From NCBI GenBank assembly GCA_025812035.1, contig GCA_025812035.1_4719.1: a stretch of 64,000 bases of DNA; one strand, given 5' to 3'. Origin of the DNA: a phage. A model generated the notes under the pieces. The model ran no database searches. It saw only the letters and a program-made list of their open reading frames with translations, and had not been told where the DNA came from. Position numbers and translations under genes: made by a program. Below are positions 7,552 through 57,209 of this stretch, one piece after another (the first letter of the stretch is position 1; each line of letters begins with the position of its first letter).

Positions 7552-7614
7552 TTTAATCTCCTCTCCTGGCTTCAGAGAATTCTCAAAATCCGTTAGTTTT
7601 GATAGACGGGATAA

Positions 7615-7647
7615 GACGGCATAAAAGCCTCCCGTATTGGGAGGCTC
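7615..7647 (-). terminator. GC hairpin followed by TTTATGCCG
   Basis: stem AGCCTCCC/GGGAGGCT, then TTTATGCCGTC on the minus strand. Confidence 0.5.
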
Positions 7648-7658
7648 CATTAATCGGC

Positions 7659-32831: not shown

Positions 32832-32888
32832 ATTACATTTCCTTTTTCTTTTTACGTCAACGGTCCCCCTCAACAGGGGACCTATGGA

Positions 32889-36267: not shown

Positions 36268-37056
36268 TTAGAACGCTAAGCCATCAAAGGCTATAGACGG
36301 ATCGTCGTCGTCATTTGCGCTTGGTGCATCCCAACGGGTATCAGGGGCTGCTGGAGCCGAACTTGATGCGTTAGAGTTACCGTTGTACTGGCCGTTACCA
36401 GCATTACGGTTACCACCGCCGTTGTTATTGTTACGATTATAGCTGTTGTTGCCATTACTTACACTACGGCTTTCACCGTCGAAATTGGTTGCAAGGATGC
36501 TCGGCAACACCGCACGATGAATACGTACGAATTCCAACGCACAAAGCGGAGAAACAATCCCGATCTGTAATGGTTGTCCGGATTCATCGACCAAAGAGTG
36601 GAAACGTGGTGGCTTGAATACGAACTGAATGTTCGGTTTTTGGTACGCTGTTACAGCAATATATACCGAACCATCATCATTCTTACCAACCCATGTTGTA
36701 CTTTCGGTAATCTGCTTTTTCTTACCAGGGTTATTGCGATCGTCGATAACCTTTTCGTTCTTCATCGCAAAGCGTTGACCCGGTTTACCCTTAGCAACTT
36801 GCTCAAGGATCGCAAGTAGGTTATAGAACGCATATGAACTCATGCGCGCCCAGATACTTTCGGCGCGACCCTGTTGGTCTTTACGACCTGTATAAACCGT
36901 GATACGCGGTTGATTTTTAGCAACGCTAATTTTCAATGAGGGGATTGAATTACCGCCCTCAACCTTTTCGTCCGCCCACAGTTTCCAGTTGTTGTCGTCG
37001 TAAGCCGTAGGAATAATGTTTCCTTGTGGTTTACTGCCCGAATTCCAATTGCTCAT
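36268..37056 (-). CDS. hypothetical protein with Asn/Gly-rich linker and acidic C-terminal tip (SSB-like tail)
   Basis: C-terminus ..NNNNGGGNRNAGNGQYNGNSN..DDDDPSIAFDGLAF, similar in architecture to SSB tails ending DDDIPF. Confidence 0.5.
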   Translation of the reverse strand: MSNWNSGSKPQGNIIPTAYDDNNWKLWADEKVEGGNSIPSLKISVAKNQPRITVYTGRKDQQGRAESIWARMSSYAFYNLLAILEQVAKGKPGQRFAMKNEKVIDDRNNPGKKKQITESTTWVGKNDDGSVYIAVTAYQKPNIQFVFKPPRFHSLVDESGQPLQIGIVSPLCALEFVRIHRAVLPSILATNFDGESRSVSNGNNSYNRNNNNGGGNRNAGNGQYNGNSNASSSAPAAPDTRWDAPSANDDDDPSIAFDGLAF

Positions 37057-37129: not shown

Positions 37130-37927
37130 TCAGCGAAACATGTCCAACAGAAAACGTTTTGCAAAGGGGTCGCGTAACTGGTTGACACCGAAGCGTGTAC
37201 GGTCTTCCGTTGTTAATGGATTCCACTGACTCTGTTTCGCAAGGTCTAACAACATCCTTTTTATTTTCACCGGCCCGCTGTTGAATTGTACAGCTTGATC
37301 CCCGAACGTTCCCAACGTCATCTTTGTAAACGGAAGGTTCGCAACCTCTGGACGATCTCCACCAGTAAGTTTGGTCGACCACTGATGTTTTCGTTTCAAG
37401 GTTCCGGTATGGCTTTCTACCAAAATAAGTTCACCAAAACCGGTTCTTGCCAACAAGTCAGAAACATAATGCGTAGTGATATACGATGTCTTGGTTATCG
37501 TAGGTAATTTACAATCCATCGATTCGATATTGGGAAGTCGATCTACAGACGCCATCAACCCACGATAAAGTGTGGCAAGTCCTTTTTGTTTTTCGGTGTG
37601 TGGCTCCTTGTGTATGGCGTGCGGATAGACACGCTTTATTGATGCATAGGTTGGCGCATATATCCGTAAACGAATATGGGGAACGAGTTCATTCACCAAC
37701 TGCCTTAGCTGCAGCAACTCGTTTTGAAAATCCCCCGTTATCATCGATAATGGTAATTTATGCTGTTCAACGTCTTCAAAGCTTTCAACAAAATTGCGTG
37801 CTAAAGTACGCAGGTTGAACAGCCAATCCATCGGTGTTTCTGGCTGTTGCTGCACGGCTGATAATGTTGCTGACGTCCCCACCGATAAAGGATAATCGCC
37901 TAACGTGCGGGCGTACATATCGCTCAT
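37130..37927 (-). CDS. hypothetical protein (start at ATG 37925..37927)
   Basis: AAGGAG RBS before internal ATG. Confidence 0.5.
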   Translation of the reverse strand: MSDMYARTLGDYPLSVGTSATLSAVQQQPETPMDWLFNLRTLARNFVESFEDVEQHKLPLSMITGDFQNELLQLRQLVNELVPHIRLRIYAPTYASIKRVYPHAIHKEPHTEKQKGLATLYRGLMASVDRLPNIESMDCKLPTITKTSYITTHYVSDLLARTGFGELILVESHTGTLKRKHQWSTKLTGGDRPEVANLPFTKMTLGTFGDQAVQFNSGPVKIKRMLLDLAKQSQWNPLTTEDRTRFGVNQLRDPFAKRFLLDMFR

Positions 37928-37946
37928 ACCCCACAACTCCTTCTTA

Positions 37947-39089
37947 TCATGGCAACGTATCAAGCCAAGCAGAAACCTTTAAGGCGTCAACGTTCGGGTA
38001 TTTATTACGGATGCGTTCGACCAACAAACGCTTAACGTTGTCCTTTGTCAAGTCCCCACCTTTCTCAATAACGTTATTGACAAAACTGTTCTTTAATAAC
38101 GACTGGTTGTTTTTGGCATCCGTTTTAATCGACCAGACAAAGCCGGGATACAAAGAAGGGATAGAACGAAACGTTTTCGCTGCGTCGTCTTCCTTATCAC
38201 AGCGTATTCGAATATGATCGCCCTTCTTCAATGAGGCCAATTCCCGTTCCAACACGCGGACGATTTCATCGCCAACAAGACCGTGCAGTTTTATCGTCTT
38301 GTAGATATCTGCTTTCTTGTTCTCGACAAATTCCCACTGATCGTTAAACGATTCGGTTAGCATATAACGAAGGTATCCTTTCGGACCTTCTTCGCCATGC
38401 GCCAAGCGACCAAACGAACCACCAACCATGATACGACCTTTCTGGGATTGTAGGTGAATATGCCCACTTACAATCCATCCCTGGGTCTTCTCTACCATTG
38501 CGTTATACGCATCGCTGCTATGAACACATGTCGCTTTTAATGCTTCTGGTGGAAGCTGATATTCAAACGCGCCGTGCATCAGAATAAAGTCCGGGGATCC
38601 CTTCTCGTCAATAAGTCGGTTCACAGCCGACAACGTCACATCTGGATCGTGGCTATAGTTATCTGGAAGATAAAGCACTTTTAAACCGAAGTCTTCATCA
38701 ACCATGCAGAGATCGTCGTAATAACGGACTTTCGCTCCTATCTCCATAACCTCGTTCTGCTCGACGAACCATTGGCTTTGCTTCTGGTCGTGTAAATTGG
38801 TGCCTTCAAGAAAGATCAAGGTGATATCATGTTCTCTCGCATACCGTAACAACCAGGTACCCCAGGCACGAACAGCAACCACGTCGCTCGTCACAAACGT
38901 CGTAATGCGATCGAAGACATCGCCACTAAATGTAATCACATCGAGTAATGCGGGATCTTCTTTTGTGATGTAGTAACGTAACTGGCTAATCAGGTTTACT
39001 GTTGGTGTTTGACGATGGATAAAATGAATATCCGATAAATTGATTCCTCGTAATACCCCAGGCGTTTTATTTCGACTGAAGTCTCGCAT
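37947..39089 (-). CDS. Mre11/SbcD-like metallophosphoesterase nuclease
   Basis: motifs LSDIHF (D-x-H), SGDVFD (GDxxD), GTNLHD, MHGAFE, SGHIH in the usual order. Confidence 0.5.
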   Translation of the reverse strand: MRDFSRNKTPGVLRGINLSDIHFIHRQTPTVNLISQLRYYITKEDPALLDVITFSGDVFDRITTFVTSDVVAVRAWGTWLLRYAREHDITLIFLEGTNLHDQKQSQWFVEQNEVMEIGAKVRYYDDLCMVDEDFGLKVLYLPDNYSHDPDVTLSAVNRLIDEKGSPDFILMHGAFEYQLPPEALKATCVHSSDAYNAMVEKTQGWIVSGHIHLQSQKGRIMVGGSFGRLAHGEEGPKGYLRYMLTESFNDQWEFVENKKADIYKTIKLHGLVGDEIVRVLERELASLKKGDHIRIRCDKEDDAAKTFRSIPSLYPGFVWSIKTDAKNNQSLLKNSFVNNVIEKGGDLTKDNVKRLLVERIRNKYPNVDALKVSAWLDTLP

Positions 39090-39871
39090 CAGAATTCCTC
39101 TAAGTTGTTGCTACTAATAGTCCCTGTCGTTGACGGTATGTTACCACTACCCATTGACGATGTTGGCGAAGAAGTTCTGGTCAGATTCAATCCGTTTAAT
39201 AGCCCACGCTCTTTTACCGTACGACGCGAACCATCACGAACGTCGTAAAGGGGTACGTTATAATGATCGAAAATCCGAAGCCATTGTACGTAATCAGCGA
39301 CAACATGGTCTTTGCTTTCATTCGGAGCAAAGCGGTCAAGCTGATGGTCGACGTAAGCTTTTGCGCTTTCAGGATTGAAGTTATACTGACGGCGTGCTTT
39401 GTCCACCATCGCAAGGAAACATGTATTGGGGTCACGATTGATATACGAACGCGTCCTGATGAATATAGCTGGTACCGTAAATAACACCTTGTTGTTATTC
39501 CCATCAGCGACAATATTAACAGCACGATGGGGTTGGCCTGCTATCTTACACCAATCGTGAACAATGGTGCTATTACTCAACATCTCCGCGTATTCAGGAT
39601 CCTGCGAAAACATACCTGCGAACGGATACAAGAAATGTTTAACGAACAGCGATTCGGGCAGGATGTTGGGGCGCGTCATCTCCTGTAAACCTTTTCGTAG
39701 AAGCTCGCTGTTGTCTACCAGCTCCTGCCACATGTCCGGTCTTGTTTTCGGGATGGACGGATCCTGAGCACGGCGAATGCGTTCTTCTTCATTTACAACC
39801 ACCACCCCAGCCGGATACCCCAATAAATCCGTTCCTTTGCTAGCATTGTTATTAGTTTGGTGCGCCTTCAT
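39089..39871 (-). CDS. hypothetical protein (260 aa)
   Basis: complete ORF. Confidence 0.5.
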   Translation of the reverse strand: MKAHQTNNNASKGTDLLGYPAGVVVVNEEERIRRAQDPSIPKTRPDMWQELVDNSELLRKGLQEMTRPNILPESLFVKHFLYPFAGMFSQDPEYAEMLSNSTIVHDWCKIAGQPHRAVNIVADGNNNKVLFTVPAIFIRTRSYINRDPNTCFLAMVDKARRQYNFNPESAKAYVDHQLDRFAPNESKDHVVADYVQWLRIFDHYNVPLYDVRDGSRRTVKERGLLNGLNLTRTSSPTSSMGSGNIPSTTGTISSNNLEEF

Positions 39872-42304: not shown

Positions 42305-42943
42305 TTAACCTAATTTACCACCGGCGATGTTGGTGAAATCTTCGCCGTCAGGAACTTGCAATAGAATACGTGCCATGTCCCAGTTGGTTAGTGTGATTGC
42401 TTTATCATCGATACTCAGTTCTGGTAGGTCGAGTTCATGATCGTCAAACTCGTAGGAAATACTCCACGTTTCATCTGTTTTAGGATCGGTTATCAGCACA
42501 CCGTCTGTTACACGCATGTAGTCCGGATGCAGCTCATTACTGAATGTGCTGAACGGATCGGTGTAACATTCAGCATACCCCTCGATCTGCTGACGCTGCG
42601 CCTTCGTACGTAAATCAGGGCACGCCATGATGAGTTGTCGGGATATGCCGTTTGCAGCTCGGAAATCCTCCACGGTGTTACATGGCATAACCACATCGTC
42701 GTGGAAGATGTTCTCCGATTGTCTCAGCAAAGTCTTACGGAGTTCAGCATAGTTTATCTGATTGAATGCGTCGAACGTTGCTAACGATTCAGCGTAAAAA
42801 TGCTTTACGTGTTCGCTTGCGCCGCCGAGACTATTCATCAACTTGTGACCGTACTCCATGAAACTTTTATCGAGACCGGAGGACATTTCTCCGAACCTCA
42901 GTGCACGATAACTGTCTCGTCCACCTGTAAATATTTGCGCCAT
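42305..42943 (-). CDS. hypothetical protein (212 aa)
   Basis: complete ORF. Confidence 0.5.
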   Translation of the reverse strand: MAQIFTGGRDSYRALRFGEMSSGLDKSFMEYGHKLMNSLGGASEHVKHFYAESLATFDAFNQINYAELRKTLLRQSENIFHDDVVMPCNTVEDFRAANGISRQLIMACPDLRTKAQRQQIEGYAECYTDPFSTFSNELHPDYMRVTDGVLITDPKTDETWSISYEFDDHELDLPELSIDDKAITLTNWDMARILLQVPDGEDFTNIAGGKLG

Positions 42944-42958
42944 TACAGGCGTCCTCCT

Positions 42959-43183
42959 TTAGCAATGGTTGTTAGTTGCTTCTATTTCGTCAAGATAAGG
43001 TTCTACGTCATCGCCCTCCACGAATTCGTTGAACCAGCAGTCAATGGTAGAAATAACCGGTGACTGGTGTTCACATTTCTTAGATACCTTAAAAGGTACG
43101 TTATTATCCATCATACCGAGTTCGGGTCGAAAACGCCCGAAATGTTTCGCAGTCCAAATGTCTGGGACGATATGGTTGTTCAT
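42959..43183 (-). CDS. RNA polymerase beta' N-terminal fragment, exon 3 (begins MNNHIVP..)
   Basis: MNNHIVP..ELGMMDNNV parallels beta' MAVHVP..ALMMSTNNI directly after the catalytic DGD; preceded by G at 43184. Confidence 0.6.
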   Translation of the reverse strand: MNNHIVPDIWTAKHFGRFRPELGMMDNNVPFKVSKKCEHQSPVISTIDCWFNEFVEGDDVEPYLDEIEATNNHC

Positions 43184-43574
43184 CGTGGTGTTCAGCATGA
43201 GTCGCTACCTCATACCCGCAGCTTTACCTGCAGCTTCCGGTGTTACCGGAATGTCCAGAATACATCTTATCCATATTCCAAATGGAACGTAGGACTTCCG
43301 CGCTGGATCTCGCTTGAGACCACGTATTCGTTGAACCTGCGTTGTTTCACATTCTTGCAAACAAGAATGCCGTATTGCTACGCAACAACCAGGCTGCTGA
43401 TCGAACATTGTCATGTACGGTAGGCATCCCCGAAGGGACTGTCATTGAAGCCGCGTACATCCGCTACCTTGTTTCTACCTTATCGGTTCCTCTTACGAGG
43501 CGTAGCGGCCTTAGCCCTTCCCAGCAATTCACGGAATCCAAGCTCTTCCTTTCGGAAGGCAGGGCCTATGATTA
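43184..43574 (-). ncRNA. candidate ORF-less self-splicing intron 2 (group I-like)
   Basis: P-like GAAUUGCUGGGAAGGG (43515..43530) and Q-like GAUCAGCAGCC (43392..43402); starts after U, ends with G; several local hairpins; P1 and P7 not resolved by eye. Confidence 0.45.
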
Positions 43575-43587
43575 AGCGTCACCGTCG
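43575..43587 (-). CDS. RNA polymerase beta' micro-exon (13 nt, c-GAC-GGU-GAC-GCU, encodes DGDA)
   Basis: only placement that rebuilds NADF-DGD-A-MNNHIVP in frame with U at both 5' splice sites and G at both intron 3' ends. Confidence 0.5.
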
Positions 43588-45028
43588 CTTACGTGCACCG
43601 ACGTTTATTAACTCATGGTTATCCACTGAAATACGGCGTTAGGGAAATAATCCTTCTTGCCGCGTTTTGAGATTTGCAATGCCATATTACTCGGAGACAA
43701 TCTGTAATGCCATGCTGCTTCATCGATAGAACTAAACTTCTTTGTTTCGCCGTTATCAAAGATGATTTTCAACGCTAGTTTAGGTAAATCGTCTTCCGTT
43801 TCTACTAGTTCGAAAGAATCGATATTCTCTGCCAGCGTTAACGGATCAACAGGTAATATCAGCCAACCAGCACGCTGCAATCCTCCACGTAGACTAATTT
43901 GTTTATTCAACGCAGGGGTAGCCATGCCAACTAACTTAGCAGCCAGCTTGCGGTCTTTAATATAAAGACGATAATCTCCGGTATTATTAATAGCATACAC
44001 ACCAAAGTTATTGAACGATACCTTTCCAGCATCGGAACTAGTAAAGCCTACAAAGTCGTGGCTGTCGGTAGCCACGTCGTATTTAAATGCTAATGGCTTG
44101 TTTCGACTGCCGCTAAGATACTTCTTGGCTGTAGATACCGATATGTTGAGATATCGTCCAATAGCATTCAAACTTTCTAGTTCGATGATTTCTCCTGTCA
44201 ATATGTCCTTTAACCGAACATTACCCATCGGTATTGGTGGTTTACCGACATAACCCAATTCACGATATGCGTGTTTCAAGTTATCTGAATCAGTAGCCCA
44301 TTCCAAATTTTCTAGTCTGTTATCCCAACGCACTCCATTAAGATGATTAGGGACACGACGGATTATACCTGACGTCGGATCTGGGTTAAATGTTTCAAGG
44401 ACGATCTGATGATGGTATTTCACTTTGTTGTTCCTAGTGAAAGCGCGATAGTTGTTTTTGCCCGACTTGGGTGGTTCAGTACGAAACAACACTGTCAGAC
44501 TAGACACATCTACTATCGTACCGTTCTTATTAACAACGATACCATCAAAACCATTAACAGGACGATAATCAGACAAACAATCTTCAGAAATTGCCTGTCC
44601 AACTAAAGGTTCACTCAATTTGACCTCCTTTATAAAAGAAGTCGGTGCACGTAATTATCGACTATATCTTCATCCTCGTTGCGAGGAGTCTCCCGTTTTG
44701 GTCTGTGTTTAACAGAGCCTACTCTACTCGACATCGCGTCTTTCGATAGTCTGTGAGCACACATCTTAACGAACATTCGTGGATTCCTAAGCAGGTGAAC
44801 GTTCTTGTTGAGATGCTTCGCTGCGGATTATTCCCGTCCTACCTCTTTTACCATACCCAGTTCATTACGCTGGCCCTCATCTGTGTCACCACGATGAGTT
44901 GGTGTGTAGTCCGATTACAGAAACTTCCCGTCAATTAGAGAGTTTTAACTACGTTCCTGTTACCAGAAACCCGACTCCGACGATATCAATTAAATCAACG
45001 TAAATTATTGATTTAATTGAAGAAACTG
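43588..45028 (-). mobile_element. group I intron 1 with embedded HNH homing endonuclease gene
   Basis: IGS GAGUCGG (44971..44977) pairs with exon end CCGACUU with terminal U-G; P AAUUGACGGGAAG (44924..44936), Q AAUCCGCAGC (44820..44829), R ACAGACUAUCG (44744..44754), S AAGAUAUAGUCG (44659..44670); 12-bp stem 44641..44652 with 43591..43602 loops out the ORF; ends with G at 43588. Confidence 0.7.
43608..44618 (-). CDS. HNH homing endonuclease (intron-encoded), UUG start
   Basis: HHQIVLETF..NHLNGVRWDNRLENLEWATDSDNLKHA HNH motif; AAGGAGGT RBS before UUG; lies entirely inside intron 1. Confidence 0.75.
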   Translation of the reverse strand: MSEPLVGQAISEDCLSDYRPVNGFDGIVVNKNGTIVDVSSLTVLFRTEPPKSGKNNYRAFTRNNKVKYHHQIVLETFNPDPTSGIIRRVPNHLNGVRWDNRLENLEWATDSDNLKHAYRELGYVGKPPIPMGNVRLKDILTGEIIELESLNAIGRYLNISVSTAKKYLSGSRNKPLAFKYDVATDSHDFVGFTSSDAGKVSFNNFGVYAINNTGDYRLYIKDRKLAAKLVGMATPALNKQISLRGGLQRAGWLILPVDPLTLAENIDSFELVETEDDLPKLALKIIFDNGETKKFSSIDEAAWHYRLSPSNMALQISKRGKKDYFPNAVFQWITMS

Positions 45029-46284
45029 AAGTCGGCATTATAACCTTTCAAGATCATCACGCTTAACCCGATGGTGTTATCCTGCGGATCGCGTTTAACC
45101 TTGGTGATTTCAAGACATTGGTTACTGCTTCGGTCAAGTGATGGATTTCGAACAAAACCACACACAATCCCATCAAACGGTGTATCAGCAATAAGCTCAT
45201 CGTGCAGCTCGCTCATCATCGGATGATAATTACGGACATGTTCCGCAACGAACGCACGTGCTGCTCTTGGTGAATAACCACGATGGAATAACTTGGATTG
45301 GATATGTTCTTTATTGGTTAATGTAAATGGCGCGTATGGGAAATGCAGATGATAATAACGATGGTTCGCTGTTATCGAACTGATTACGGTACGCGTGGTG
45401 AATGGATGTAATGTACCTAATATGTTTTTACGTGTGATACCTTTCTTCTTACCGATGAACTCATCGAAAATCGCCGAGTGGTACTGCAGCAGCTTCAGTT
45501 GTACTTTCGCCATCCAGTTTTCTTTCTTTCTGGCGCTCAAAGGTGTTGTTGGGTGATAGATACTATTCAATGTACCGATAGCATCGATCGCACCTTCCAT
45601 TTTGCTATCTGCATAACGACCGGTTGGTGTATTCTCGATAACGAACATCATGGCGGCAGGAAAACTGATATACTGGCTGAAGAACTTATCGCGATGAATG
45701 CGGGTGAATTCTCGTAGCGTATCAACTTTCTCCGTGTTCTTCGGTCCGCGTAACGTAGGTCCTTTATACAAGATCTCCATGATGCGATCGAAGTTCTGTA
45801 TAAAGCTATTTATCCCACGTCGTATCCCGAATACATCGAATTGCTGCTCCAGATAGTTCTTGAGTTCGATGGGTCGTTTTACGTTTGGACGGTAACTGGC
45901 ATCAATGAGCCACGTCATCGTTTCAAAGCTTTTGATATTCAACTCGCTTGCCAGCACGAGATGGACCAACGGGTTAATAAACGCATCAATTCCTTCAGGA
46001 ACACGCGCCCAAACCGTCGAACGAATCTCTTGTTCTGCTGGGTAGGTTACAACCGTTTTACAGTTTGGACACACCGTGCCAAGCAGCTCACCACGATTGT
46101 AGAAACCACATCCACATTGTGGTGTGATATCCAACGTATCGCTGGAGTAAACACGGGTGATAAAACTGTTTAATTTCTTCTTCTCTTCGACGACTTTTGT
46201 GTCGTAATCATTCAACAAAATAGGCGTAAAAGGAAGTTCTGCGAGCTGTCTATCGAAACTCACGATATCGAGCATGATGGCCAT
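45029..46284 (-). CDS. RNA polymerase beta' N-terminal fragment, exon 1 (ends ..YNADF)
   Basis: zinc finger CGCGFYNRGELLGTVCPNCK and ..NPSL.R...Q.....IGL..ILKGYNADF parallel E. coli beta' up to NADF; unspliced frame stops 5 codons after NADF. Confidence 0.75.
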
Positions 46285-46376: not shown

Positions 46377-48272
46377 TTAGAACAGGTTGAATGCCCCACC
46401 CATGTTGTTACCACCAACGTTCGGACGATCGCTGCGTGCGTAGATGCTACCGGAGATATTACCCAGACCACGAGCACGTGCTGCCATGTTACCACGAACA
46501 GCGGTACCCGCCAGATGCTGGATATTCTCAGGACGGATGGTGAAGCCAGCTTCAGCAGCTGCTTCAATCAACGCAGCAAGCGCTTGCGGTTCGAAGTCGT
46601 AACGCATTGCCCAACCGGTTTGTTCCCAGCTACCAGACAGAACACGATCGATGATTTCGTGACGAGCGACAACACGCTGAGACATCGACATATCGGTACG
46701 GTCGAAGCTGTCTTCCCATGCTTCTACGGTATCCGGGTTAGTGATGTTCATCATGTACAGATCGTCCATATCGCGAATATCGTGACGGTTACCATCCTGG
46801 TGGTTGTAGTGACCCAGCGGGATACGGTTACCGGTAGCGTAGACCAGCGGTTGACCGTATTGATATTTCTTGCTGAAGCAGCCCAGGGTAGTATCATCGA
46901 AGGCACGGAAGAGTGCTTTGTAACCTTCAGAGACTTCCCGAACATCAGCCTCAACATTACCCGTATAGATCTTCTCAGCCGCCGGGATCATACGCAACAG
47001 CCAGCTGTATTCGCCTTCTTCCGGCACGTCGATAGAAATCAGCAGGGACGGATACAGTACCTGTTGCAGGAACTTGTAAATCTGCTCATTGGTTTGAGTA
47101 GACAGATCCAGCGGTGCGGTAACTTCCGGATCCAGCACCATCGCCAGAGCACCCGGGTTATGCGGACCGATACCACGAGCAGCGTTGCTGATTAAAGACT
47201 GCGCCCATGCCATGCCGCTGTTCAGCGTAGCAATGGTACCAATCAGACCCAATACAAAAGTATTCGGTGTGAATGCGTCCAGCTCCAGCGGGTAAGCGCT
47301 GGTCATCACGTAACGCGGCTGGTATTGTACAGTCGGCGGTACCGGATAACCGTTAACCAGAACAGGACCTTGGTTGAAGGTCGGGTTCTGCGGGCTGTAG
47401 GTCAGGTCGATATAGCCGGTAGTTGCGACCAGACGCTGCTGGCTATCGTAATCGCTCATCGCTTGACGGATGCGGTTAGAGATAGTTACAGTGATGTCGG
47501 AACGCACTGGGTTACCAACGATATCGCTGTCCTGCATACCGCTGGTGTTATACTGAACGCTGCTGATCGGCTGATCGCTTGCCATCATGCCCAGGTTGAA
47601 CTGCGGCAGGCCCAGTTTATCACCGAGACGGATTTCGATTGCGGTTTGGATTGCGTTATCTGCAGCAGACAGCAGGGTGGTTGCCAGGTGTGCAGATTCA
47701 GCGGTGATTTCATTGGTCACCACAGCCAGACCAGCGATACGAACAGTACCATTAGCCTTGCCACCAATAGCCGCATACATTGCCGCCATGACTTCGTTGA
47801 TGAACGTGCCGTTCAGGTTATCAACCCAGGTACGCGGTACCAGAATGTTACCATGCGGACCTTGTTCTTCACGACGCGGCAGCGGAGCCAAACCGGCAAC
47901 CAGCGGAAGCACATAACCGAAGAAGTGGTTATGATCACCAACTTTCGCACCACTCATAACCACCAGGGTCGGATACGGTACACTGTACTGACCAGGATCG
48001 ACAGTCACCATGATGAAGTCGTCTTTAAAGCCTTTATCTTCCAGTTCTTTTTCCATCAGACGACGGAGGTTCAGTACTTGCTCAGAACCGGTGTTACGGC
48101 TAATACGACGACTCAGTGTACGGTTGATCGTACGCATCGTATGAGTCACTTTAGGCTGGCCAGCAAAGTCTGCAGCGGTTTCCAGCGCTTCATCTGCACG
48201 TTGTGCGGTGCGGGTTTCAGCTGCACGAATTTCTACATTATCGTTACCGTTTTTACGTACGTCTAAGCCCAT
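46377..48272 (-). CDS. abundant 631-aa protein; candidate nuclear-shell (chimallin-like) or major structural protein
   Basis: very strong codon bias; disordered N-terminus and Gly-rich C-terminal tail; conserved promoter-like motif upstream and strong GC hairpin downstream. Confidence 0.6.
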   Translation of the reverse strand: MGLDVRKNGNDNVEIRAAETRTAQRADEALETAADFAGQPKVTHTMRTINRTLSRRISRNTGSEQVLNLRRLMEKELEDKGFKDDFIMVTVDPGQYSVPYPTLVVMSGAKVGDHNHFFGYVLPLVAGLAPLPRREEQGPHGNILVPRTWVDNLNGTFINEVMAAMYAAIGGKANGTVRIAGLAVVTNEITAESAHLATTLLSAADNAIQTAIEIRLGDKLGLPQFNLGMMASDQPISSVQYNTSGMQDSDIVGNPVRSDITVTISNRIRQAMSDYDSQQRLVATTGYIDLTYSPQNPTFNQGPVLVNGYPVPPTVQYQPRYVMTSAYPLELDAFTPNTFVLGLIGTIATLNSGMAWAQSLISNAARGIGPHNPGALAMVLDPEVTAPLDLSTQTNEQIYKFLQQVLYPSLLISIDVPEEGEYSWLLRMIPAAEKIYTGNVEADVREVSEGYKALFRAFDDTTLGCFSKKYQYGQPLVYATGNRIPLGHYNHQDGNRHDIRDMDDLYMMNITNPDTVEAWEDSFDRTDMSMSQRVVARHEIIDRVLSGSWEQTGWAMRYDFEPQALAALIEAAAEAGFTIRPENIQHLAGTAVRGNMAARARGLGNISGSIYARSDRPNVGGNNMGGAFNLF

Positions 48273-48526: not shown

Positions 48527-49621
48527 ATGTTTCGTGTTTTAAATAACCTCCCGCGAACATCATCGGGTGTGCAACCCATCCCTCAGAAAGACTATCTGAT
48601 ACGCGAAGTTCAAAGAAACCTACAAACAATCCAGAACCACTATCAGGGTTTTACCTTCGCGGTTCAGAGTGATCACATCCTTGCGTTGCTGCTCGCACAG
48701 CTCCCTATGAGATACGACATCTCTGTACAAACTTACTACGACATGATTCTCGATCTTACACCAGAATTGGGTAATCGTGTTAAGTTGACAACATCGAGAT
48801 ACGCAGGTAAGTTATTCGACGGAGCTTTCTATCCGGGATTGCATGAAGCCATCATCGCAACCGGTGAAAGCCGTCTTATTTCACGGGATGTTCTTGACAA
48901 CTGGCGTAATTGGTCACCGGTTAGAATCGTGACGCACCCGTACGCAAATCTTCGTTACATTCCTCTTCACCGAAAACAGGTTGAAGAAGGACGAGGTTTC
49001 GCGGTCATCATGGTCGATGTACCTTTATTAGCATTACAGTATCGAATGTGGTCTTTGGTCATGGGCCATAACGTCGACGGTAAATGGGTGGTTAAAGAAC
49101 CGGTTACGAGCTTCCTTGCGAGTTTTCCATTGGTTAACGCATTATACTCACACAACGATGTTGTCATACGCAACCGTTGTTTGTGGGTACCTCCGGCTAA
49201 GAATCCACTCAAGTCGCCGATTTACGTTAACGACCTGGATAACGTATTCAGTCAAGTCGTGCTGTCCGTACAACATCATTTATTACGAAGAAGACGAAGC
49301 TACACCGACATGCTTAAACAGATACCGAGTTTATACGGGGATCAGTACCAAGCAACCCGAATGGGCTACACCGTCGATCTTCGACAAACCCGATGGGCAA
49401 GGGATCTAGGCTGTATGTCATTATGGCAGCAGCTCGTCACACTGCAAAACGTATCTGAAAGCGTCGGGTTCAGCAGTCAAATCGATAATGATCTGTACCG
49501 CGCCGCCGACCGGAGTCTGAAAGAAGGTAGCTGGGAATCCTCTCCGTTACCCGGCGATTTGCGGCGTGAAGTTATCGCACAGGTTGCCGACCTCTTAAAA
49601 ATTCTTCCTGCTGGGACATAA
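48527..49621 (+). CDS. hypothetical protein (364 aa, plus-strand island)
   Basis: long ORF; inverted copy of the promoter-like motif upstream; hairpin downstream. Confidence 0.5.
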   Translation: MFRVLNNLPRTSSGVQPIPQKDYLIREVQRNLQTIQNHYQGFTFAVQSDHILALLLAQLPMRYDISVQTYYDMILDLTPELGNRVKLTTSRYAGKLFDGAFYPGLHEAIIATGESRLISRDVLDNWRNWSPVRIVTHPYANLRYIPLHRKQVEEGRGFAVIMVDVPLLALQYRMWSLVMGHNVDGKWVVKEPVTSFLASFPLVNALYSHNDVVIRNRCLWVPPAKNPLKSPIYVNDLDNVFSQVVLSVQHHLLRRRRSYTDMLKQIPSLYGDQYQATRMGYTVDLRQTRWARDLGCMSLWQQLVTLQNVSESVGFSSQIDNDLYRAADRSLKEGSWESSPLPGDLRREVIAQVADLLKILPAGT

Positions 49622-49685: not shown

Positions 49686-51839
49686 TTACTCTGCGGCTTC
49701 TTGCTTCGGTAAATAACTTGCAGCGATATCTTGAGCTAACAATGTATTATTTTTATTCGAGATGAAAATACCGTAACTTTCCATCAACGCGTAATACGAA
49801 CGAACAAGCGTAGAGATCAGTCGACGAATATCCATACCTTGAATAAAGATATCAGGAAGCCCGGAGGCTTCGATCACCGGTAATGGTATCGTTAAATTAC
49901 TTATTGTTTTCTTATCGTTACGTACAATCCAATCGCGGAAACGTTGTTGTAACCCTTTATCCTCCCATGAATCAATCCAATCATTAAGAAGCGTTTTGTT
50001 CTTCGTCGCCAACGGCACACGAACCCCAACATAAGGAGGTTCGGAGCAATGGCCGTACGATTGAGCAAACACCTCTTCCCACATATCGTAAGACTGTTTC
50101 GTTACTGCAACATGTGGTTTCACTTTAACACGTGTTAAGAAATCGGGGTCACCTCGTTTCATTGACTCAACGATTTCGTTTTCTAACGAGATGATATCAT
50201 CAAGAACCAATCGAATACTGATCTTCTCGTTACGTAACAGCTTATCCATGATACCACACATCATCCGCTCAACACGTTGGACGATCATCTTCGGCGCTGA
50301 TGCGTCGCGCATAACTGGGCCTTTCAATTCCAGCTTCGGTGGATTGATAGGAACCCCTTCACGCATGGTCATGTAACCGTAATAGTTTTTACCCATCGAG
50401 GTTAACGACAGGATCAAGAACATATATTCGTTCTTCATTTCCATCACGTACATATGCTCTTTCGCCACACCGATATTACCAGAGCACATCGCCATCAGAT
50501 GAACCGTGATCTGTGTAACCAGATAGATAAGCGTGTTGGCTAAGCGCGTCGAAACTGGATTGATCTCCATATTCCCAAATCGCCACTGAACCCACTCCTG
50601 ACAGGTAAATACCGTTGAGTCGGTATCGGACAACACCCCCACTTCACGGATCGCTGATGGGAAAGCATAAACACCCGCCGGTTGGTTCTCGGTACGCCAG
50701 AACGCCATAATCAAGTCAGCGTAACCTTGAATACGTTGCAACATTAATTTTGTCGTTGCTGCGGTAAGACGATAACCAAGTTCATTTCCTTTTTCTAGCG
50801 CGACGTAAATCGCTTCTCCATTCAAGAACTCCGTGCATTGTGCTGTAATCCATGCGACGGTGTTGTTATCCATGGAAGCAATAATGGCTTTAGCTTCTTC
50901 CATCGTTTCAACAGGTTCGGATGCCAGTTCACATAACGAGTCAAGAAAATGACGAACGAATTCAGGATTAAGCTCACGTAACGAGTACAGGTTATTGCTG
51001 TACATATAGCAAGCGCGTTCCAACGGGGTTAAACCAGTGATTAGCTCCCGGATGACCAATTCTTTCTCTGGGTCGAAAGTGTACCGATGCAAGCATTTCG
51101 ATACGTTAGCCCAAACCTCTTCCGGCGTAGGGTAATGCAGTTTGTATTTTACCATCACCTGCTCAATGGCGTTACGATCGCTATTGCGAACAATGCTTAC
51201 GATGTTTTCAATTGCGATATCACAATCGTAATAATGGAAATTGCCTGCCAGGAAGCGTTCATTGTTCGCATTGGCCGAACCTGAAGCGCAGCGACATGTT
51301 GTTGTTAAACTCGGATGCGCAATCGGATTATAAAACGGATTAAACTTGGACGCCTGTGTTCCCGACAAACTGTTGTTATCTAACTTGGTGTTGGTTTGTC
51401 GTTTATCGTGTAGTTCAGCTTCGTCTTTACGTCCGTGTGCTTGTGCTATCGACATTTGTTTCTTTTGTTTCTTACGCAACTTACCGTTTTCAACCGCAAA
51501 GTCGCTTAGCACGCTGGAACGTGTCTCGCGTGGATAACAGTTAGCCCATACCGGCGTGATAATTAAATTATTTTCTTTAATATCGTTGAAATATTGACTG
51601 AACTTGATGACTTCTTTTTCTCGATTTCCTTCGGTACGCTGTGTTAAAACAAGACAGTCGGGATCAACCATCCCGTATTTTCCGCCAGGACGTACCGTAT
51701 CAAGAACAAACTGCAGCGCTTCCTGCTGCGATATCCCACGCATGCGCATTAAGAACAGGGTATAATCCTGCACCGCTTCTTTGGTCATATCCAACGTACG
51801 ACCGTATCCGTTTTCATCGTAAAAGAACGGATTTTCCAT
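49686..51839 (-). CDS. large hypothetical protein (717 aa) with LSDTDS motif; possible nucleotidyltransferase
   Basis: long ORF; GVLSDTDSTVF resembles polymerase motif C, other motifs not confirmed. Confidence 0.55.
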   Translation of the reverse strand: MENPFFYDENGYGRTLDMTKEAVQDYTLFLMRMRGISQQEALQFVLDTVRPGGKYGMVDPDCLVLTQRTEGNREKEVIKFSQYFNDIKENNLIITPVWANCYPRETRSSVLSDFAVENGKLRKKQKKQMSIAQAHGRKDEAELHDKRQTNTKLDNNSLSGTQASKFNPFYNPIAHPSLTTTCRCASGSANANNERFLAGNFHYYDCDIAIENIVSIVRNSDRNAIEQVMVKYKLHYPTPEEVWANVSKCLHRYTFDPEKELVIRELITGLTPLERACYMYSNNLYSLRELNPEFVRHFLDSLCELASEPVETMEEAKAIIASMDNNTVAWITAQCTEFLNGEAIYVALEKGNELGYRLTAATTKLMLQRIQGYADLIMAFWRTENQPAGVYAFPSAIREVGVLSDTDSTVFTCQEWVQWRFGNMEINPVSTRLANTLIYLVTQITVHLMAMCSGNIGVAKEHMYVMEMKNEYMFLILSLTSMGKNYYGYMTMREGVPINPPKLELKGPVMRDASAPKMIVQRVERMMCGIMDKLLRNEKISIRLVLDDIISLENEIVESMKRGDPDFLTRVKVKPHVAVTKQSYDMWEEVFAQSYGHCSEPPYVGVRVPLATKNKTLLNDWIDSWEDKGLQQRFRDWIVRNDKKTISNLTIPLPVIEASGLPDIFIQGMDIRRLISTLVRSYYALMESYGIFISNKNNTLLAQDIAASYLPKQEAAE

Positions 51840-56228: not shown

Positions 56229-57209
56229 TTAGAATAGCAAGAAACCGCTGTTCTTCGCTTCCGCTACAGTTTCGTCACCAACTTTCGGTGCCTGTTGACG
56301 CGCGTTACGATGTTCAATGTAACGTTTCGCTTCGTCAGCGATTTGTTTGATAATACCCCCTAAACGATCGGTACTTAAAACAAACGACGTCGCTTCACGG
56401 ATTGGGCTGCTGTCAGGCACAAAACCGTCACAACTGTAAATAGCGTTAACACCCATGACTTTTGTCGCGTCTTTCGGATAAAGCGTACAGAAAGCAATGG
56501 GGCTATCGTTCTCTTTTGTCCAATCGTATCCCATGAACGTATTCAGTTCGGTGATCGTTGGTTCCAAACCGGTAACACGTGGATGGTTCAAGAAGTTTTC
56601 CAGGTCAGCGCTGTCAAGACGACGGTTCTCACCAGAAAACAGAACACAAAGCTGGCTAATAACAACCTGCACGTCCAGGTTGACATCCTGCTCCGATTTC
56701 CCATTTTCGCCATTCATGTGATAGCTGACGATCACCGGACGTTTCAACCCTTCTGCGGCTGCCATCAGTCCTTTAAAGGTGCGGTCTGCGTTGATCGTCT
56801 GACGCTCATCATCGAACGAGGCAACGATGCAACATACCACACGTTCACCGCGTTCCAGCAGGTTAGCAACCAACGCAGGACCTGCAACAGAACCCGAACC
56901 ACCGCTTAAACTAAAGACCACGATATTAAATTTACCTGGCGTATGTTTGTTGAGAATACCTGGGATTTGTGAACAGATCAGTTCAGCGTTCTCGTCACGC
57001 TTCTTACCCGAACCGTCTAACTCGCGGCCTGCTGCATCTTTAAAGATGTAAATATGATCATCGTCCAGTGTGCTATCGCGTAGGTTAGCACGGCTGGTAT
57101 CGACATACGTCATGCTGTGTAATCCTTTCGCGACTTCGCCTTCAAACGCTGAGCCGATTTCGCCACCACAACCGCCGACAGCCCAAATATGTACTTGGTT
57201 CTCTTGCAT
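56229..57209 (-). CDS. phuZ: PhuZ-like phage tubulin (tubulin/FtsZ GTPase fold)
   Basis: N-terminal AVGGCGGEIGSA nucleotide-binding segment and SLSGGSGSVAGP tubulin signature (GGGTGSG-like); length 326 aa. Confidence 0.75.
   Translation of the reverse strand: MQENQVHIWAVGGCGGEIGSAFEGEVAKGLHSMTYVDTSRANLRDSTLDDDHIYIFKDAAGRELDGSGKKRDENAELICSQIPGILNKHTPGKFNIVVFSLSGGSGSVAGPALVANLLERGERVVCCIVASFDDERQTINADRTFKGLMAAAEGLKRPVIVSYHMNGENGKSEQDVNLDVQVVISQLCVLFSGENRRLDSADLENFLNHPRVTGLEPTITELNTFMGYDWTKENDSPIAFCTLYPKDATKVMGVNAIYSCDGFVPDSSPIREATSFVLSTDRLGGIIKQIADEAKRYIEHRNARQQAPKVGDETVAEAKNSGFLLF

What the first reader, a model, noticed from the sequence alone, without database searches (positions are those of the whole stretch)
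56229..57209. PhuZ-type tubulin together with a split multisubunit RNA polymerase suggests a nucleus-forming jumbo phage
ORF 56229..57209 has the tubulin/FtsZ nucleotide-binding N-terminus (AVGGCGGEIGSA) and signature loop (SLSGGSGSVAGP), as in PhuZ of phiKZ-like phages. The same window encodes beta C (28933..31101), beta' C (24853..26859) and beta' N (46284..42959) as separate polypeptides, the hallmark of phiKZ-like virion and non-virion polymerases. The two beta' halves lie about 20 kb apart and may belong to different polymerase sets; no beta N-terminal fragment was found in the window.
Basis: partly seen in the sequence, partly recalled or inferred. Interest (0 to 1): 0.6.

Follow-up and report, generated by a model that had tools for sequence, protein, structure and literature searches.

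The report
Goslar-like nucleus-forming phage: PhuZ tubulin

Summary
Observation confirmed. ORF 56229..57209, on the minus strand, encodes a 326-aa tubulin/FtsZ-type protein with both quoted motifs. It is 98.8% identical to PhuZ of Escherichia phage vB_EcoM_Goslar, which has been characterised experimentally and solved structurally. The whole window is about 93% identical in DNA to Goslar and collinear with it.

All RNA polymerase pieces in the window are orthologues of the phiKZ non-virion polymerase: gp55, gp71-73, gp74 and the fifth subunit gp68. So the two beta' halves belong to one set, not two. No virion-polymerase piece and no beta N-terminal piece is present.

It is split by two group I introns, one carrying an HNH endonuclease. 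Between them lies a 13-nt micro-exon that encodes the catalytic DGD. Three related genomes with different intron layouts give the same spliced protein, and the guide helix of the first intron shows compensatory changes. Goslar's annotation does not record this exon.

Verdict: an ordinary, already known system. The micro-exon is a modest side finding.

The parts
56229..57209 (-). PhuZ phage tubulin, 326 aa; orthologue of Goslar PhuZ (HOV27_gp234, called gp201 in Birkholz 2022) and phiKZ gp39
   Evidence: ORF. PHROG 4733 E=2.4e-68. PDB 9pm9 E=2.5e-218 and 3zbp E=2e-29. 98.8% identical to Goslar. Four aa and 46 nt differences from Goslar; D202 conserved.
46377..48272 (-). Chimallin (ChmA), the nuclear shell protein; orthologue of phiKZ gp54
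   Evidence: Pfam PF25677 at 96.9 bits against a cut-off of 27. PHROG 4795 'nuclear shell protein'. PDB 7sqt Goslar chimallin at 1377 bits.
45029..46284 (-). nvRNAP beta' N-terminal subunit, exon 1 (phiKZ gp55 orthologue); ends ...GGT TAT AAT GCC GAC TT
   Evidence: blastp to phiKZ gp55 E=2e-65. PDB 7ogp_A E=8e-62. PHROG 2987 positions 1-419 of 478. Splice site derived.
43588..45028 (-). Group I intron A, 1441 nt: catalytic core 45019..44642; guide sequence 44984..44971; a 14-bp stem (44654..44641 with 43602..43589) enclosing the HNH ORF; last base is G
   Evidence: Rfam Intron_gpI 47.8 bits, E=1.6e-10, just under the cut-off of 50. Stem and guide sequence located. P1 and P10 pairing with compensatory changes against L011. 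An ORF-less copy exists in L011.
43608..44618 (-). Intron-encoded HNH homing endonuclease, 336 aa, with a NUMOD1 domain
   Evidence: Pfam HNH_3 31.1 bits and NUMOD1 24 bits. PHROG 59. Annotated as HNH endonuclease gp186 in Goslar.
43575..43587 (-). 13-nt micro-exon C GAC GGT GAC GCT. It completes the Phe codon and encodes D-G-D-A, which includes two of the three aspartates of the DFDGD motif that binds the catalytic Mg2+
   Evidence: It is the only GAYGGNGAY on this strand in the 42900..45100 stretch searched. The 1846-nt exon 1-exon 3 interval would give about 0.11 such sites by chance. It restores the frame and the sequence NADFDGDAMNNH. It is conserved in Goslar, L010 and L011 between different introns, and L010 differs only at synonymous positions.
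43184..43574 (-). Group I intron B, 391 nt, no ORF; homologous to the catalytic core of the phiKZ gp55 intron; ends ...CTGAACACCACG
   Evidence: Aligns with the phiKZ intron core, which scores 75.6 bits as Intron_gpI. RNAalifold on 6 copies gives 83 pairs, 31 with compensatory changes. Copies in L010 give weak Rfam hits. The window copy itself has no Rfam hit.
42959..43183 (-). nvRNAP beta' N last exon (MNNHIVPDIW...NNHC, then stop); equivalent to phiKZ PHIKZ056.1
   Evidence: PHROG 2987 positions 424-475. blastp to phiKZ gp56.1. PDB 7ogp_A residues 443-495.
   Evidence: blastp to phiKZ gp68 E=6e-33 over the full length, in the syntenic position. Role of gp68 taken from PMC8287921.
28933..31101 (-). 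nvRNAP beta C-terminal subunit (phiKZ gp71-73 orthologue); uninterrupted here, whereas phiKZ has the gp72 ORF between gp71 and gp73
   Evidence: blastp to gp71 E=9e-42 and gp73 E=8e-39, collinear. PHROG 3295 E=8e-181. Aligns to rpoB positions 856-994 of 1096. Start codon as in Goslar gp171.
24853..26859 (-). nvRNAP beta' C-terminal subunit (phiKZ gp74 orthologue), 668 aa
   Evidence: blastp to gp74 E=4e-95. PHROG 3015 E=5e-170. Aligns to rpoC positions 668-910 of 1147.
49686..51839 (-). DNA polymerase (phiKZ gp50 orthologue); context showing the conserved gp39-to-gp75 gene block
   Evidence: blastp E=7e-137. PHROG 2927 E=3e-205.

Best explanation
The window is a 64-kb segment of a Goslarvirus, a Chimalliviridae jumbo phage of Enterobacteriaceae that differs from the type phage Goslar by about 7% in DNA. 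ORF 56229..57209 (minus strand) is its PhuZ. PhuZ is a tubulin/FtsZ-fold GTPase that polymerises with GTP into dynamic filaments. In Goslar these filaments form a vortex around the chimallin-enclosed phage nucleus and rotate it, and a D202A mutant acts as a dominant negative (shown for Goslar; inferred here from 98.8% identity with D202 kept). The same gene block, collinear with phiKZ gp39 to gp75, encodes chimallin and four of the five subunits of the non-virion RNA polymerase that transcribes middle and late genes: beta' N (gp55-like), beta' C (gp74-like), beta C (gp71-73-like) and the sigma-like gp68 homologue. The beta N subunit (gp123-like) and the whole virion polymerase lie outside the window. 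The beta' N gene must be spliced twice. Intron A (with HNH) and intron B flank a 13-nt exon, and splicing yields a 497-aa protein with an intact NADFDGD catalytic loop (inferred from sequence, comparison and covariation; not shown at the RNA level).
For: Identity and synteny with Goslar. PhuZ family. D202 kept and purifying selection (46 nt but only 4 aa differences). Function of Goslar PhuZ and the D202A mutant: PMC9891218. Chimallin. RNAP orthology: every window fragment has its only or best phiKZ hit in gp55, gp68, gp71+73 or gp74, and gp80, gp149, gp178, gp180 and gp123 find nothing. Subunit roles: PMC8287921. Beta and beta' C-terminal register confirmed against rpoB and rpoC models. Splicing model: group I core A; the solved phiKZ gp55 chain is the spliced product of PHIKZ055 and PHIKZ056.1; a unique DGD-coding piece; an in-frame 497-aa product; four genomes with three different intron layouts give the identical junction; P1 of intron A has two compensatory double changes and its P10 is 7 bp; the B-type introns share a fold with 31 covarying pairs.
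Against: Nothing contradicts the PhuZ and nucleus-forming assignment. Pfam Tubulin falls 2.5 bits under its gathering score, as expected for a divergent phage tubulin. For the splicing model: no RNA or peptide data exist. Rfam scores intron A just below threshold (47.8 against 50) and does not detect the window copy of intron B at all. P1 of intron B is only 3-4 bp by my own reading. In L010 the base before the second 5' splice site is C rather than the usual U.
Confidence: 0.95

Rival explanations
1. The ORF is a bacterial FtsZ, or a plasmid or prophage TubZ-type partition tubulin, and the RNAP pieces are host rpoB/rpoC fragments in a chromosomal or plasmid context.
For: The N-terminal GGxGG and the SGGSGS signature are shared by all tubulin/FtsZ proteins.
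Against: All 174 matching phage records are jumbo phages, and the best non-Goslar hits are annotated PhuZ. There is no match in 5,426 complete E. coli genomes, 72,556 plasmids or 185,579 species-representative genomes. Chimallin is adjacent. NCBIfam rpoB and rpoC scores are 15-37 bits against cut-offs of 800-1400, so these are not host genes.
Confidence: 0.01
2. One reading: the two beta' halves, about 20 kb apart, belong to different polymerase sets, one virion and one non-virion.
For: phiKZ-like phages do carry two split RNAP sets, and the two halves are far apart in the window.
Against: Best and only phiKZ hits are gp55 (E=2e-65) and gp74 (E=4e-95), both non-virion subunits according to PMC8287921. 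phiKZ gp55 and gp74 are themselves about 19 kb apart in the same gene order. The virion subunits gp180 and gp80 find nothing in the window at E<=0.1.
Confidence: 0.02
3. The beta' N gene is not spliced through a micro-exon. Either it is a decayed gene, or it is expressed as two separate polypeptides (423 aa ending ...NADFSFFN, plus 79 aa), as Goslar's GenBank and RefSeq annotation implies. On this view the DGD-coding 13-mer is a chance occurrence inside one long intron.
For: Goslar annotates two separate CDSs and one 'Intron_gpI' feature. A GAYGGNGAY site is expected about 0.11 times by chance in the interval. Rfam does not detect intron B in the window.
Against: Without the 13-mer the enzyme would lack the last two aspartates of the DFDGD motif, which binds the catalytic Mg2+ in phiKZ gp55 (PMC8287921). 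Joining exon 1 directly to exon 3 shifts the frame to ...NADL followed by a stop (read from the sequence). The DGD(A)-coding piece sits between different introns in L010 and L011, with only synonymous changes, and always restores the same 497-aa protein. The guide sequence of intron A pairs with both the end of exon 1 and the start of the micro-exon, and it covaries with synonymous exon changes. Two independent group I cores are present.
Confidence: 0.07

Closest known systems
PhuZ of Escherichia phage vB_EcoM_Goslar (RefSeq HOV27_gp234, YP_009820885; 'gp201' in Birkholz et al. 2022, PMC9891218; PDB 9pm9/9pmk by sequence match)
   Same: 326 aa, 98.8% identical, same genomic neighbours, D202 conserved. 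The expected function is the same: a filament vortex that rotates the phage nucleus.
   Different: Four conservative substitutions (G49D, E229D, S255N, E266D) and 46 nucleotide differences. The host phage differs from Goslar by about 7% in DNA, three insertions and one replaced segment.
PhuZ of Pseudomonas phages phiKZ (gp39, PDB 3zbp) and 201phi2-1 (gp59, PDB 3r4v/3j5v)
   Same: Same fold family and same position in the conserved gp39-to-gp75 block. They are GTP-dependent filament formers in nucleus-forming phages.
   Different: Only about 28-31% identity. The Pseudomonas phages build a bipolar spindle that centres the nucleus, whereas Goslar PhuZ forms a vortex and does not centre it (PMC9891218). 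The C-terminal tail does not align with phiKZ beyond residue ~291.
phiKZ non-virion RNA polymerase (gp55, gp68, gp71-73, gp74, gp123; PDB 7ogp)
   Same: Four of the five subunits have orthologues in the window, in the same order and orientation. The gp55 orthologue is likewise interrupted by a group I intron with an HNH ORF at the NADFDGD codons.
   Different: phiKZ has one intron, after the Asn codon, with the HNH ORF placed 5' of the core. The window has two introns and a 13-nt exon, with the HNH ORF 3' of core A. The gp71-73 orthologue is uninterrupted here. gp123 lies outside the window.
[quoted passage not shown]
   Same: Several group I introns lie within one gene, with a very short internal exon. 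In L010 the two flanking introns are close relatives of each other.
   Different: The exons here are 13 nt (18 nt in L010), shorter than those precedents. They encode active-site residues of an RNA polymerase. L011 packs three introns around two 13-nt exons. Splicing and exon skipping have not been tested.

Membership tests
PhuZ (phage tubulin of Chimalliviridae) | Tubulin/FtsZ GTPase domain with a glycine-rich T1 loop and a T4 signature loop | tested here: met
   AVGGCGGEIGSA and SLSGGSGSVAGP are present. Pfam Tubulin matches residues 9-151 at 30.5 bits, E=5.6e-7, slightly below the cut-off of 33.
PhuZ (phage tubulin of Chimalliviridae) | Full-length homology to experimentally characterised or solved PhuZ proteins | tested here: met
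   PHROG 4733 'tubulin PhuZ' matches residues 1-323 at E=2.4e-68. PDB 9pm9 E=2.5e-218, 3zbp E=2.2e-29, 3r4v and 3j5v E=3e-15.
PhuZ (phage tubulin of Chimalliviridae) | Conserved aspartate needed for GTP hydrolysis (Goslar D202; the D202A mutant is dominant negative) | tested here: met
   Position 202 is D within ...RRLDSADLENF.... The role of the residue comes from PMC9891218.
PhuZ (phage tubulin of Chimalliviridae) | C-terminal tail that contacts neighbouring subunits in the filament (known for 201phi2-1 PhuZ; from my own knowledge) | tested here: inconclusive
   The last 60 residues are identical to Goslar PhuZ. phmmer alignments to phiKZ and 201phi2-1 stop at residues 291-297, so tail homology was not shown.
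PhuZ (phage tubulin of Chimalliviridae) | GTP-dependent polymerisation into dynamic filaments in infected cells | not testable with these tools
   Shown for the 98.8%-identical Goslar protein by GFP fusions and cryo-ET (PMC9891218); not shown for this sequence.
Chimalliviridae (nucleus-forming jumbo phages) | Encodes chimallin (ChmA), the nuclear shell protein | tested here: met
   ORF 46377..48272: PF25677 at 96.9 bits; PDB 7sqt at 1377 bits.
Chimalliviridae (nucleus-forming jumbo phages) | Encodes a split multisubunit non-virion RNAP and a virion RNAP | tested here: inconclusive
   Four of the five nvRNAP subunits are in the window. The gp123-like subunit and all vRNAP subunits are absent from the 64-kb window. 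They would be expected elsewhere in the genome, which was not examined.
Chimalliviridae (nucleus-forming jumbo phages) | Conserved core-gene block collinear with phiKZ | tested here: met
   Nineteen window ORFs, in order, match phiKZ gp39, 50, 52, 54, 55, 56.1, 59, 64, 65, 66, 67, 68, 69, 70, 71, 73, 74 and 75.
Group I self-splicing intron (intron A, 45028..43588) | Catalytic core P3-P9 recognisable by a covariance model | tested here: inconclusive
   Rfam RF00028 scores 47.8 bits, E=1.6e-10, with full model coverage, but 2.2 bits under the gathering score. The same feature is annotated in Goslar.
Group I self-splicing intron (intron A, 45028..43588) | P1 helix between the end of the 5' exon and an internal guide sequence with U.G at the splice site; P10 with the 3' exon; terminal G | tested here: met
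   Exon CCGACUU pairs with guide GAGUCGG (7 bp, U.G at position -1). Micro-exon CGACGGU pairs with AUCGUCG (7 bp). The intron ends ...GUAAG. Against L011 there are two compensatory double changes in P1.
Group I self-splicing intron (intron B, 43574..43184) | Catalytic core recognisable as group I, or homologous to a known group I intron | tested here: met
   The window copy has no Rfam hit. It aligns throughout with the phiKZ gp55 intron core, which scores 75.6 bits. The L010 copies score 26-28 bits. The shared fold has 31 covarying pairs.
Group I self-splicing intron (intron B, 43574..43184) | P1 with U.G at the 5' splice site; terminal G | tested here: inconclusive
   An automated search found no guide pairing of 5 bp or more. 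By my own reading, GCU pairs with GGC plus one U-A pair (3-4 bp). The intron ends ...CCACG. The L010 copy has C rather than U at position -1.
Group I self-splicing intron (both introns) | Self-splicing that joins the exons in RNA | not testable with these tools
   No transcript data are available. Splicing is inferred from the need for DFDGD and from comparison.
Intein (insert 23735..24421 in the helicase) | C-terminal His-Asn followed by a Ser/Thr/Cys nucleophile; a Hint domain; in-frame insertion at a conserved site | tested here: met
   The junction reads ...IVTHN|T and restores the Walker A motif GSGKT. TIGR01443 intein_Cterm scores 18.1 bits against a cut-off of 15.6. Hint hits are weak. 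The insertion is exactly 687 nt relative to Goslar.
Intein (insert 23735..24421 in the helicase) | N-terminal Cys or Ser nucleophile (class 1 inteins) | tested here: not met
   The first residue is Ala (K|ALALHTPV). This fits class 2 or class 3 inteins instead. W, C and T residues sit where the class 3 'WCT' motif would lie, but that placement is from memory and was not tested.

The most novel reading that the evidence does not exclude
In Goslarviruses the codons for the catalytic NADFDGD loop of the non-virion RNA polymerase beta' subunit are a hot-spot for group I intron invasion. Two or three introns are packed within about 30 coding nucleotides. They leave 13-nt exons (18 nt in one genome), one of which carries the Mg2+-binding DGD. 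Public annotation of Goslar misses this exon and lists the gene as two unrelated CDSs. Production of the polymerase for middle and late genes would then depend on two or three accurate self-splicing events on one transcript, because skipping the micro-exon gives a frame-shifted, truncated beta'. The intron layout varies between close relatives: the HNH ORF is present or absent as a clean stem-bounded module, an intron is replaced by a paralogue, and one genome has an extra intron. I found no description of this in the searchable literature. The exons are shorter than the precedents cited there (23 nt in Twort, 34 nt in Coxiella).
Probability: 0.5. Interest if true: 0.45.

Novelty: already known. 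Interest (0 to 1): 0.2.

Why it matters
The main finding adds nothing beyond placing this window in the genus Goslarvirus. That genus has a well-studied type phage (nucleus, PhuZ vortex, solved chimallin) and was recently expanded to 237 genomes recovered from bacterial assemblies (PMC12768965). What the re-analysis does contribute is corrected annotation. All RNAP pieces in the window belong to the non-virion enzyme. The gp68-like subunit and chimallin are present. The beta' N gene needs a 13-nt micro-exon that RefSeq does not record for Goslar. Anyone who expresses Goslar nvRNAP recombinantly, or designs knock-downs or proteomics against it, needs the spliced 497-aa sequence. The variable intron layouts also offer a natural system for studying intron competition at an enzyme active site in nucleus-forming phages.

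Tried and rejected
(1) Rfam at gathering thresholds over the whole window found nothing. The group I hit for intron A appears only at the E-value threshold, and intron B is not found even at E<=10, so I had to rely on homology to the phiKZ intron.

(2) There are no tRNAs in the window.

(3) Searches for intron-less or variant alleles in complete E. coli genomes, PLSDB plasmids and GTDB species representatives all came back empty. Only IMG/VR gave relatives.

(4) I considered a single long intron with the HNH ORF 5' of the core, as in phiKZ. I rejected it because two complete cores are present and no DGD would be encoded.

(5) I considered that the repeated CCGACTTC (45034..45027 and 44645..44638, read by eye) marks the ends of a short intron A. 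I rejected it because the product would read NADFFYKGGQIE followed by a stop, and because the second copy is part of the 14-bp stem that encloses the HNH ORF.

(6) An automated search for a guide pairing of 5 bp or more for intron B found none. Its P1 remains weak.

(7) Pfam and NCBIfam give no family for PhuZ, for the gp68-like protein or for beta' N at curated cut-offs. PHROGs and PDB were the informative sources.

(8) I did not run structure prediction, because a solved structure of a 98.8%-identical protein exists.

(9) The Twort paper (PMC22036) is not held in the library, so its exon sizes were taken from PMC10136302.
Full report
**1. The observation**

An ORF occupies exactly 56229..57209, but on the minus strand; the plus-strand reading is full of stops. 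It encodes 326 aa. AVGGCGGEIGSA lies at residues 10-21 and SLSGGSGSVAGP at residues 100-111.

- Pfam's Tubulin/FtsZ GTPase domain matches residues 9-151 at 30.5 bits, just under the 33-bit cut-off.
- PHROG 4733 'tubulin PhuZ' matches end to end at E=2.4e-68.
- Against solved structures the top hit is 9pm9/9pmk at E=2.5e-218, almost residue for residue. Next come phiKZ PhuZ 3zbp (E=2.2e-29) and 201phi2-1 PhuZ 3r4v/3j5v (E=3e-15).

**2. Where the window comes from**

Megablast of three window segments finds a single phage, Escherichia phage vB_EcoM_Goslar (NC_048170 / MK327938), at 90.6-94% identity and collinear. A local block comparison shows five collinear blocks of 87-93% identity, three insertions in the window and one replaced segment.

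PhuZ is 98.8% identical to Goslar's. It has four conservative substitutions against 46 nucleotide differences, which indicates strong purifying selection.

Goslar is an experimentally established nucleus-forming phage. Its chimallin forms a shell around the DNA. Its PhuZ ('gp201') forms a vortex of filaments that rotates the nucleus. PhuZ(D202A) blocks vortex formation and rotation (PMC9891218). D202 is conserved in the window.

The genus Goslarvirus has since been expanded from 1 to 237 genomes (38 species) recovered from Escherichia, Salmonella and Shigella assemblies (PMC12768965). A 93%-identical relative is therefore not unexpected.

**3. Surroundings**

Using Goslar's annotation and a local blastp against phiKZ proteins, the window read on its minus strand reproduces the phiKZ block from gp39 to gp75.

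| Window coordinates | phiKZ orthologue | Identity |
|---|---|---|
| 56229..57209 | gp39 | PhuZ |
| 49686..51839 | gp50 | DNA polymerase |
| 48527..49621 (plus strand) | gp52 | not named in phiKZ (structural head protein note) |
| 46377..48272 | gp54 | chimallin |
| 45013..46284 and 42959..43198 | gp55 and gp56.1 | nvRNAP beta' N |
| 42305..42943 | gp59 | unnamed |
| 39089..39871 | gp64 | unnamed |
| 37947..39089 | gp65 | SbcD-like |
| 37130..37963 | gp66 | unnamed |
| 36268..37056 | gp67 | unnamed |
| 34477..36063 | gp68 | nvRNAP fifth subunit |
| 32889..34475 | gp69 | unnamed |
| 31551..32873 | gp70 | unnamed |
| 28933..31101 | gp71 + gp73 | nvRNAP beta C |
| 24853..26859 | gp74 | nvRNAP beta' C |
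| 22595..24856 | gp75 | helicase |

Chimallin is confirmed independently: Pfam PF25677 at 96.9 bits and PDB 7sqt, Goslar chimallin, at 1377 bits.

**4. Which polymerase?**

According to the phiKZ nvRNAP structure paper (PMC8287921):

- The virion RNAP consists of gp178, gp149, gp180 and gp80.
- The non-virion RNAP consists of gp55 (beta', carries DFDGD), gp74 (beta', bridge helix and trigger loop), gp71-73 (beta, double-psi beta-barrel (DPBB) and flap), gp123 (beta) and gp68 (sigma-like).

Every RNAP fragment in the window hits only non-virion subunits: gp55 E=2e-65, gp71 E=9e-42, gp73 E=8e-39, gp74 E=4e-95 and gp68 E=6e-33. tblastn with gp80, gp149, gp178, gp180 and gp123 against the whole window returns nothing at E<=0.1.

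NCBIfam places 24853..26859 on rpoC positions 668-910 of 1147, and 28933..31101 on rpoB positions 856-994 of 1096.

The suggestion that the two beta' halves might belong to different sets is not correct. They form one set and are separated by about 19 kb, as in phiKZ. The absence of a beta N fragment is confirmed, and the gp123 gene lies far from this block in phiKZ as well.

**5. The 'beta' N' span is an intron-split gene**

Between 46284 and 42959 there are three ORFs. PHROG 2987 covers profile positions 1-419 in the first ORF and 424-475 in the last. The middle ORF is an HNH/NUMOD1 endonuclease.

The first ORF ends ...GYNADF-SFFN-stop, inside the universal NADFDGD motif. A group I core follows immediately (Rfam 47.8 bits, E=1.6e-10, at 45019..44642). 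Goslar carries the same 'Intron_gpI' feature.

The solved phiKZ gp55 chain is named 'PHIKZ055...PHIKZ056.1' and reads ...KAPNADFD...LNLTLMPDVY. So the orthologous phiKZ gene is spliced, and its DFDGD binds the catalytic Mg2+.

In the window the last exon begins at ATG AAC AAC CAT (MNNHIVPDIW). It follows ...CTGAACACCACG, which resembles the phiKZ intron end ...CTGAACAATACG. That leaves four codons, DGDx, unaccounted for.

The only GAYGGNGAY on this strand in the 42900..45100 stretch searched lies at 43586, in the context ..GTAAG|C GAC GGT GAC GCT|TAATCAT... About 0.11 such sites would be expected by chance in the 1846-nt interval between exon 1 and exon 3.

The resulting model is:

| Element | Window coordinates | Length |
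|---|---|---|
| Exon 1 | 46284..45029 | 1256 nt |
| Intron A | 45028..43588 | 1441 nt |
| Micro-exon | 43587..43575 | 13 nt |
| Intron B | 43574..43184 | 391 nt |
| Exon 3 | 43183..42959 | 225 nt including the stop |

This gives an in-frame 497-aa protein reading ...GYNADFDGDAMNNHIVPDIW.... From memory, the spacing matches E. coli NADFDGDQMAVH.

**6. Tests of the splicing model**

(a) Intron A. Its guide sequence AUCGUCG|GAGUCGG (44984..44971) pairs 7 bp with the end of exon 1 (CCGACUU, with U.G at the splice site). It pairs 7 bp with the start of the micro-exon (CGACGGU). The intron ends in G.

(b) The stem around the ORF. A perfect 14-bp stem (44654..44641 with 43602..43589) encloses the HNH ORF and stops one base before the 3' splice site.

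(c) Intron B. It aligns along its length with the core of the phiKZ gp55 intron, which scores 75.6 bits as group I. RNAalifold on six B-type copies gives 83 pairs, 31 of them with compensatory changes.

(d) Natural variants from IMG/VR:

- L009 is Goslar itself and has the same layout as the window.
- L011 lacks exactly the stem plus the HNH ORF. It has a third intron upstream, which leaves a second 13-nt exon, ATAATGCAGATTT.
- L010 lacks intron A. It has a B-like intron inserted 5 nt upstream, which leaves an 18-nt exon GACTTTGACGGTGATGCC. This differs from the window's DGDA codons only at synonymous positions.

All four genomes splice in silico to the same 497-aa protein with the identical junction.

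(e) Covariation. Between the window and L011, synonymous exon changes (GCC GAC -> GCA GAT) are matched by guide-sequence changes. These give two compensatory double changes in P1.

(f) Rfam. It detects the additional introns in L010 and L011 at sub-threshold scores of 26-46 bits.

Weak points:

- There is no RNA evidence.
- P1 of intron B is only 3-4 bp.
- Intron B of L010 has C rather than U before its 5' splice site.
- The window copy of intron B has no Rfam hit.

I put the model at about 0.85-0.9.

**7. Mechanism**

Shown for the near-identical Goslar proteins, and inferred here: the virion RNAP (outside the window) transcribes early genes. These early genes include chimallin and the nvRNAP subunits encoded in this block.

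The beta' N transcript must lose introns A and B by self-splicing to encode the Mg2+-binding loop. Skipping the micro-exon would read ...NADL followed by a stop, as can be read from the sequence.

The five-subunit nvRNAP, in which the gp68-like protein takes the place of sigma, transcribes middle and late genes inside the chimallin shell. PhuZ polymerises with GTP into dynamic filaments that rotate the nucleus, and D202 is needed for the dynamics.

**8. Comparison and novelty**

The PhuZ and nucleus-forming reading is already known: the protein is 98.8% identical to a characterised and solved one.

Introns carrying HNH endonucleases in chimallivirus RNAP genes are known. Examples are phiKZ gp56, seen, and PhiPA3 gp210 in the vRNAP gene (PMC11620839, PMC12908238).

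Tandem group I introns around short exons are also known: a 23-nt exon in Twort orf142, a 34-nt exon in Coxiella 23S rRNA (PMC10136302), and a small exon in phiNIT1 (PMC11878797).

Three things appear to be unrecorded:

- The 13-nt exon that carries DGD.
- The packing of up to three introns in one catalytic loop.
- The layout differences among Goslarviruses.

Goslar's RefSeq record lists the two end ORFs as separate CDSs. The papers I could search do not mention the arrangement.

**9. Verdict**

The finding is ordinary and already explained. I give it low interest (0.2), with a moderately interesting side observation.

Noticed in passing
window 42959..46284 (minus strand); L010 5252-5976; L011 5244-6365: The nvRNAP beta' N gene is split by two group I introns around a 13-nt micro-exon (43587..43575) that encodes the catalytic DGD. 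The Goslar RefSeq record annotates the end pieces as separate CDSs (gp247 and gp185). Relatives have other layouts: three introns with two 13-nt exons in L011, and a paralogous intron with an 18-nt exon in L010.
   Followed up: yes
window 23735..24421 (minus strand), inside the helicase ORF 22595..24856: A 229-aa intein-like insertion sits exactly in the Walker A motif (TGSGK|ALALHTPV...IVTHN|TAMSQ). It is absent from Goslar and phiKZ gp75. It passes the TIGR01443 intein C-terminal cut-off. It starts with Ala rather than Cys or Ser, so it may be a class 2 or class 3 intein. PHROG hits to unrelated intein-bearing terminases, primases and helicase loaders come from this segment.
   Followed up: partly
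window 44641..44654 with 43589..43602: A perfect 14-bp helix encloses the HNH ORF of intron A. In L011 the helix and the ORF are missing together, replaced by a single C (..GATAA-C-AG|). The endonuclease gene therefore behaves as a discrete, stem-bounded module that is gained or lost.
   Followed up: partly
window 6667..7561 (ORF 6667..7650, minus strand): An 895-nt insertion relative to Goslar, beside the thymidylate synthase gene. Its 327-aa ORF carries DUF7448 (85.6 bits) and matches PHROG 2650 of unknown function.
   Followed up: partly
window 20321..21194 (within ORF 19749..21227, plus strand): The C-terminal part of a protein with DUF7941 and DUF285 domains (annotated in Goslar as a BspA-family leucine-rich repeat surface protein) is replaced by unrelated sequence of similar length compared with Goslar. 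Its N-terminus matches virion structural PHROGs, so this may be host-range variation in a receptor-binding protein.
   Followed up: partly
window 3700..4092: A 393-nt insertion relative to Goslar (7 nt at the same place in Goslar). Its content was not examined.
   Followed up: no
window 28933..31101 (minus strand): The nvRNAP beta C gene is one uninterrupted ORF here and in Goslar. In phiKZ the orthologue is split into gp71 and gp73 by the gp72 ORF. Intron occupancy of the RNAP genes therefore differs between chimallivirus lineages.
   Followed up: partly
window 43184..43574 compared with Goslar (alignment A1 columns ~297-355; A2 columns ~210-270): One peripheral hairpin of intron B is replaced. 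The window has a longer element containing the perfect 8-bp hairpin CATTCTTG-TTTG-CAAGAATG, where Goslar, L010 and L011 have CTCC-GTTCA-GGAG. This 36-nt difference may explain why Rfam misses the window copy.
   Followed up: no
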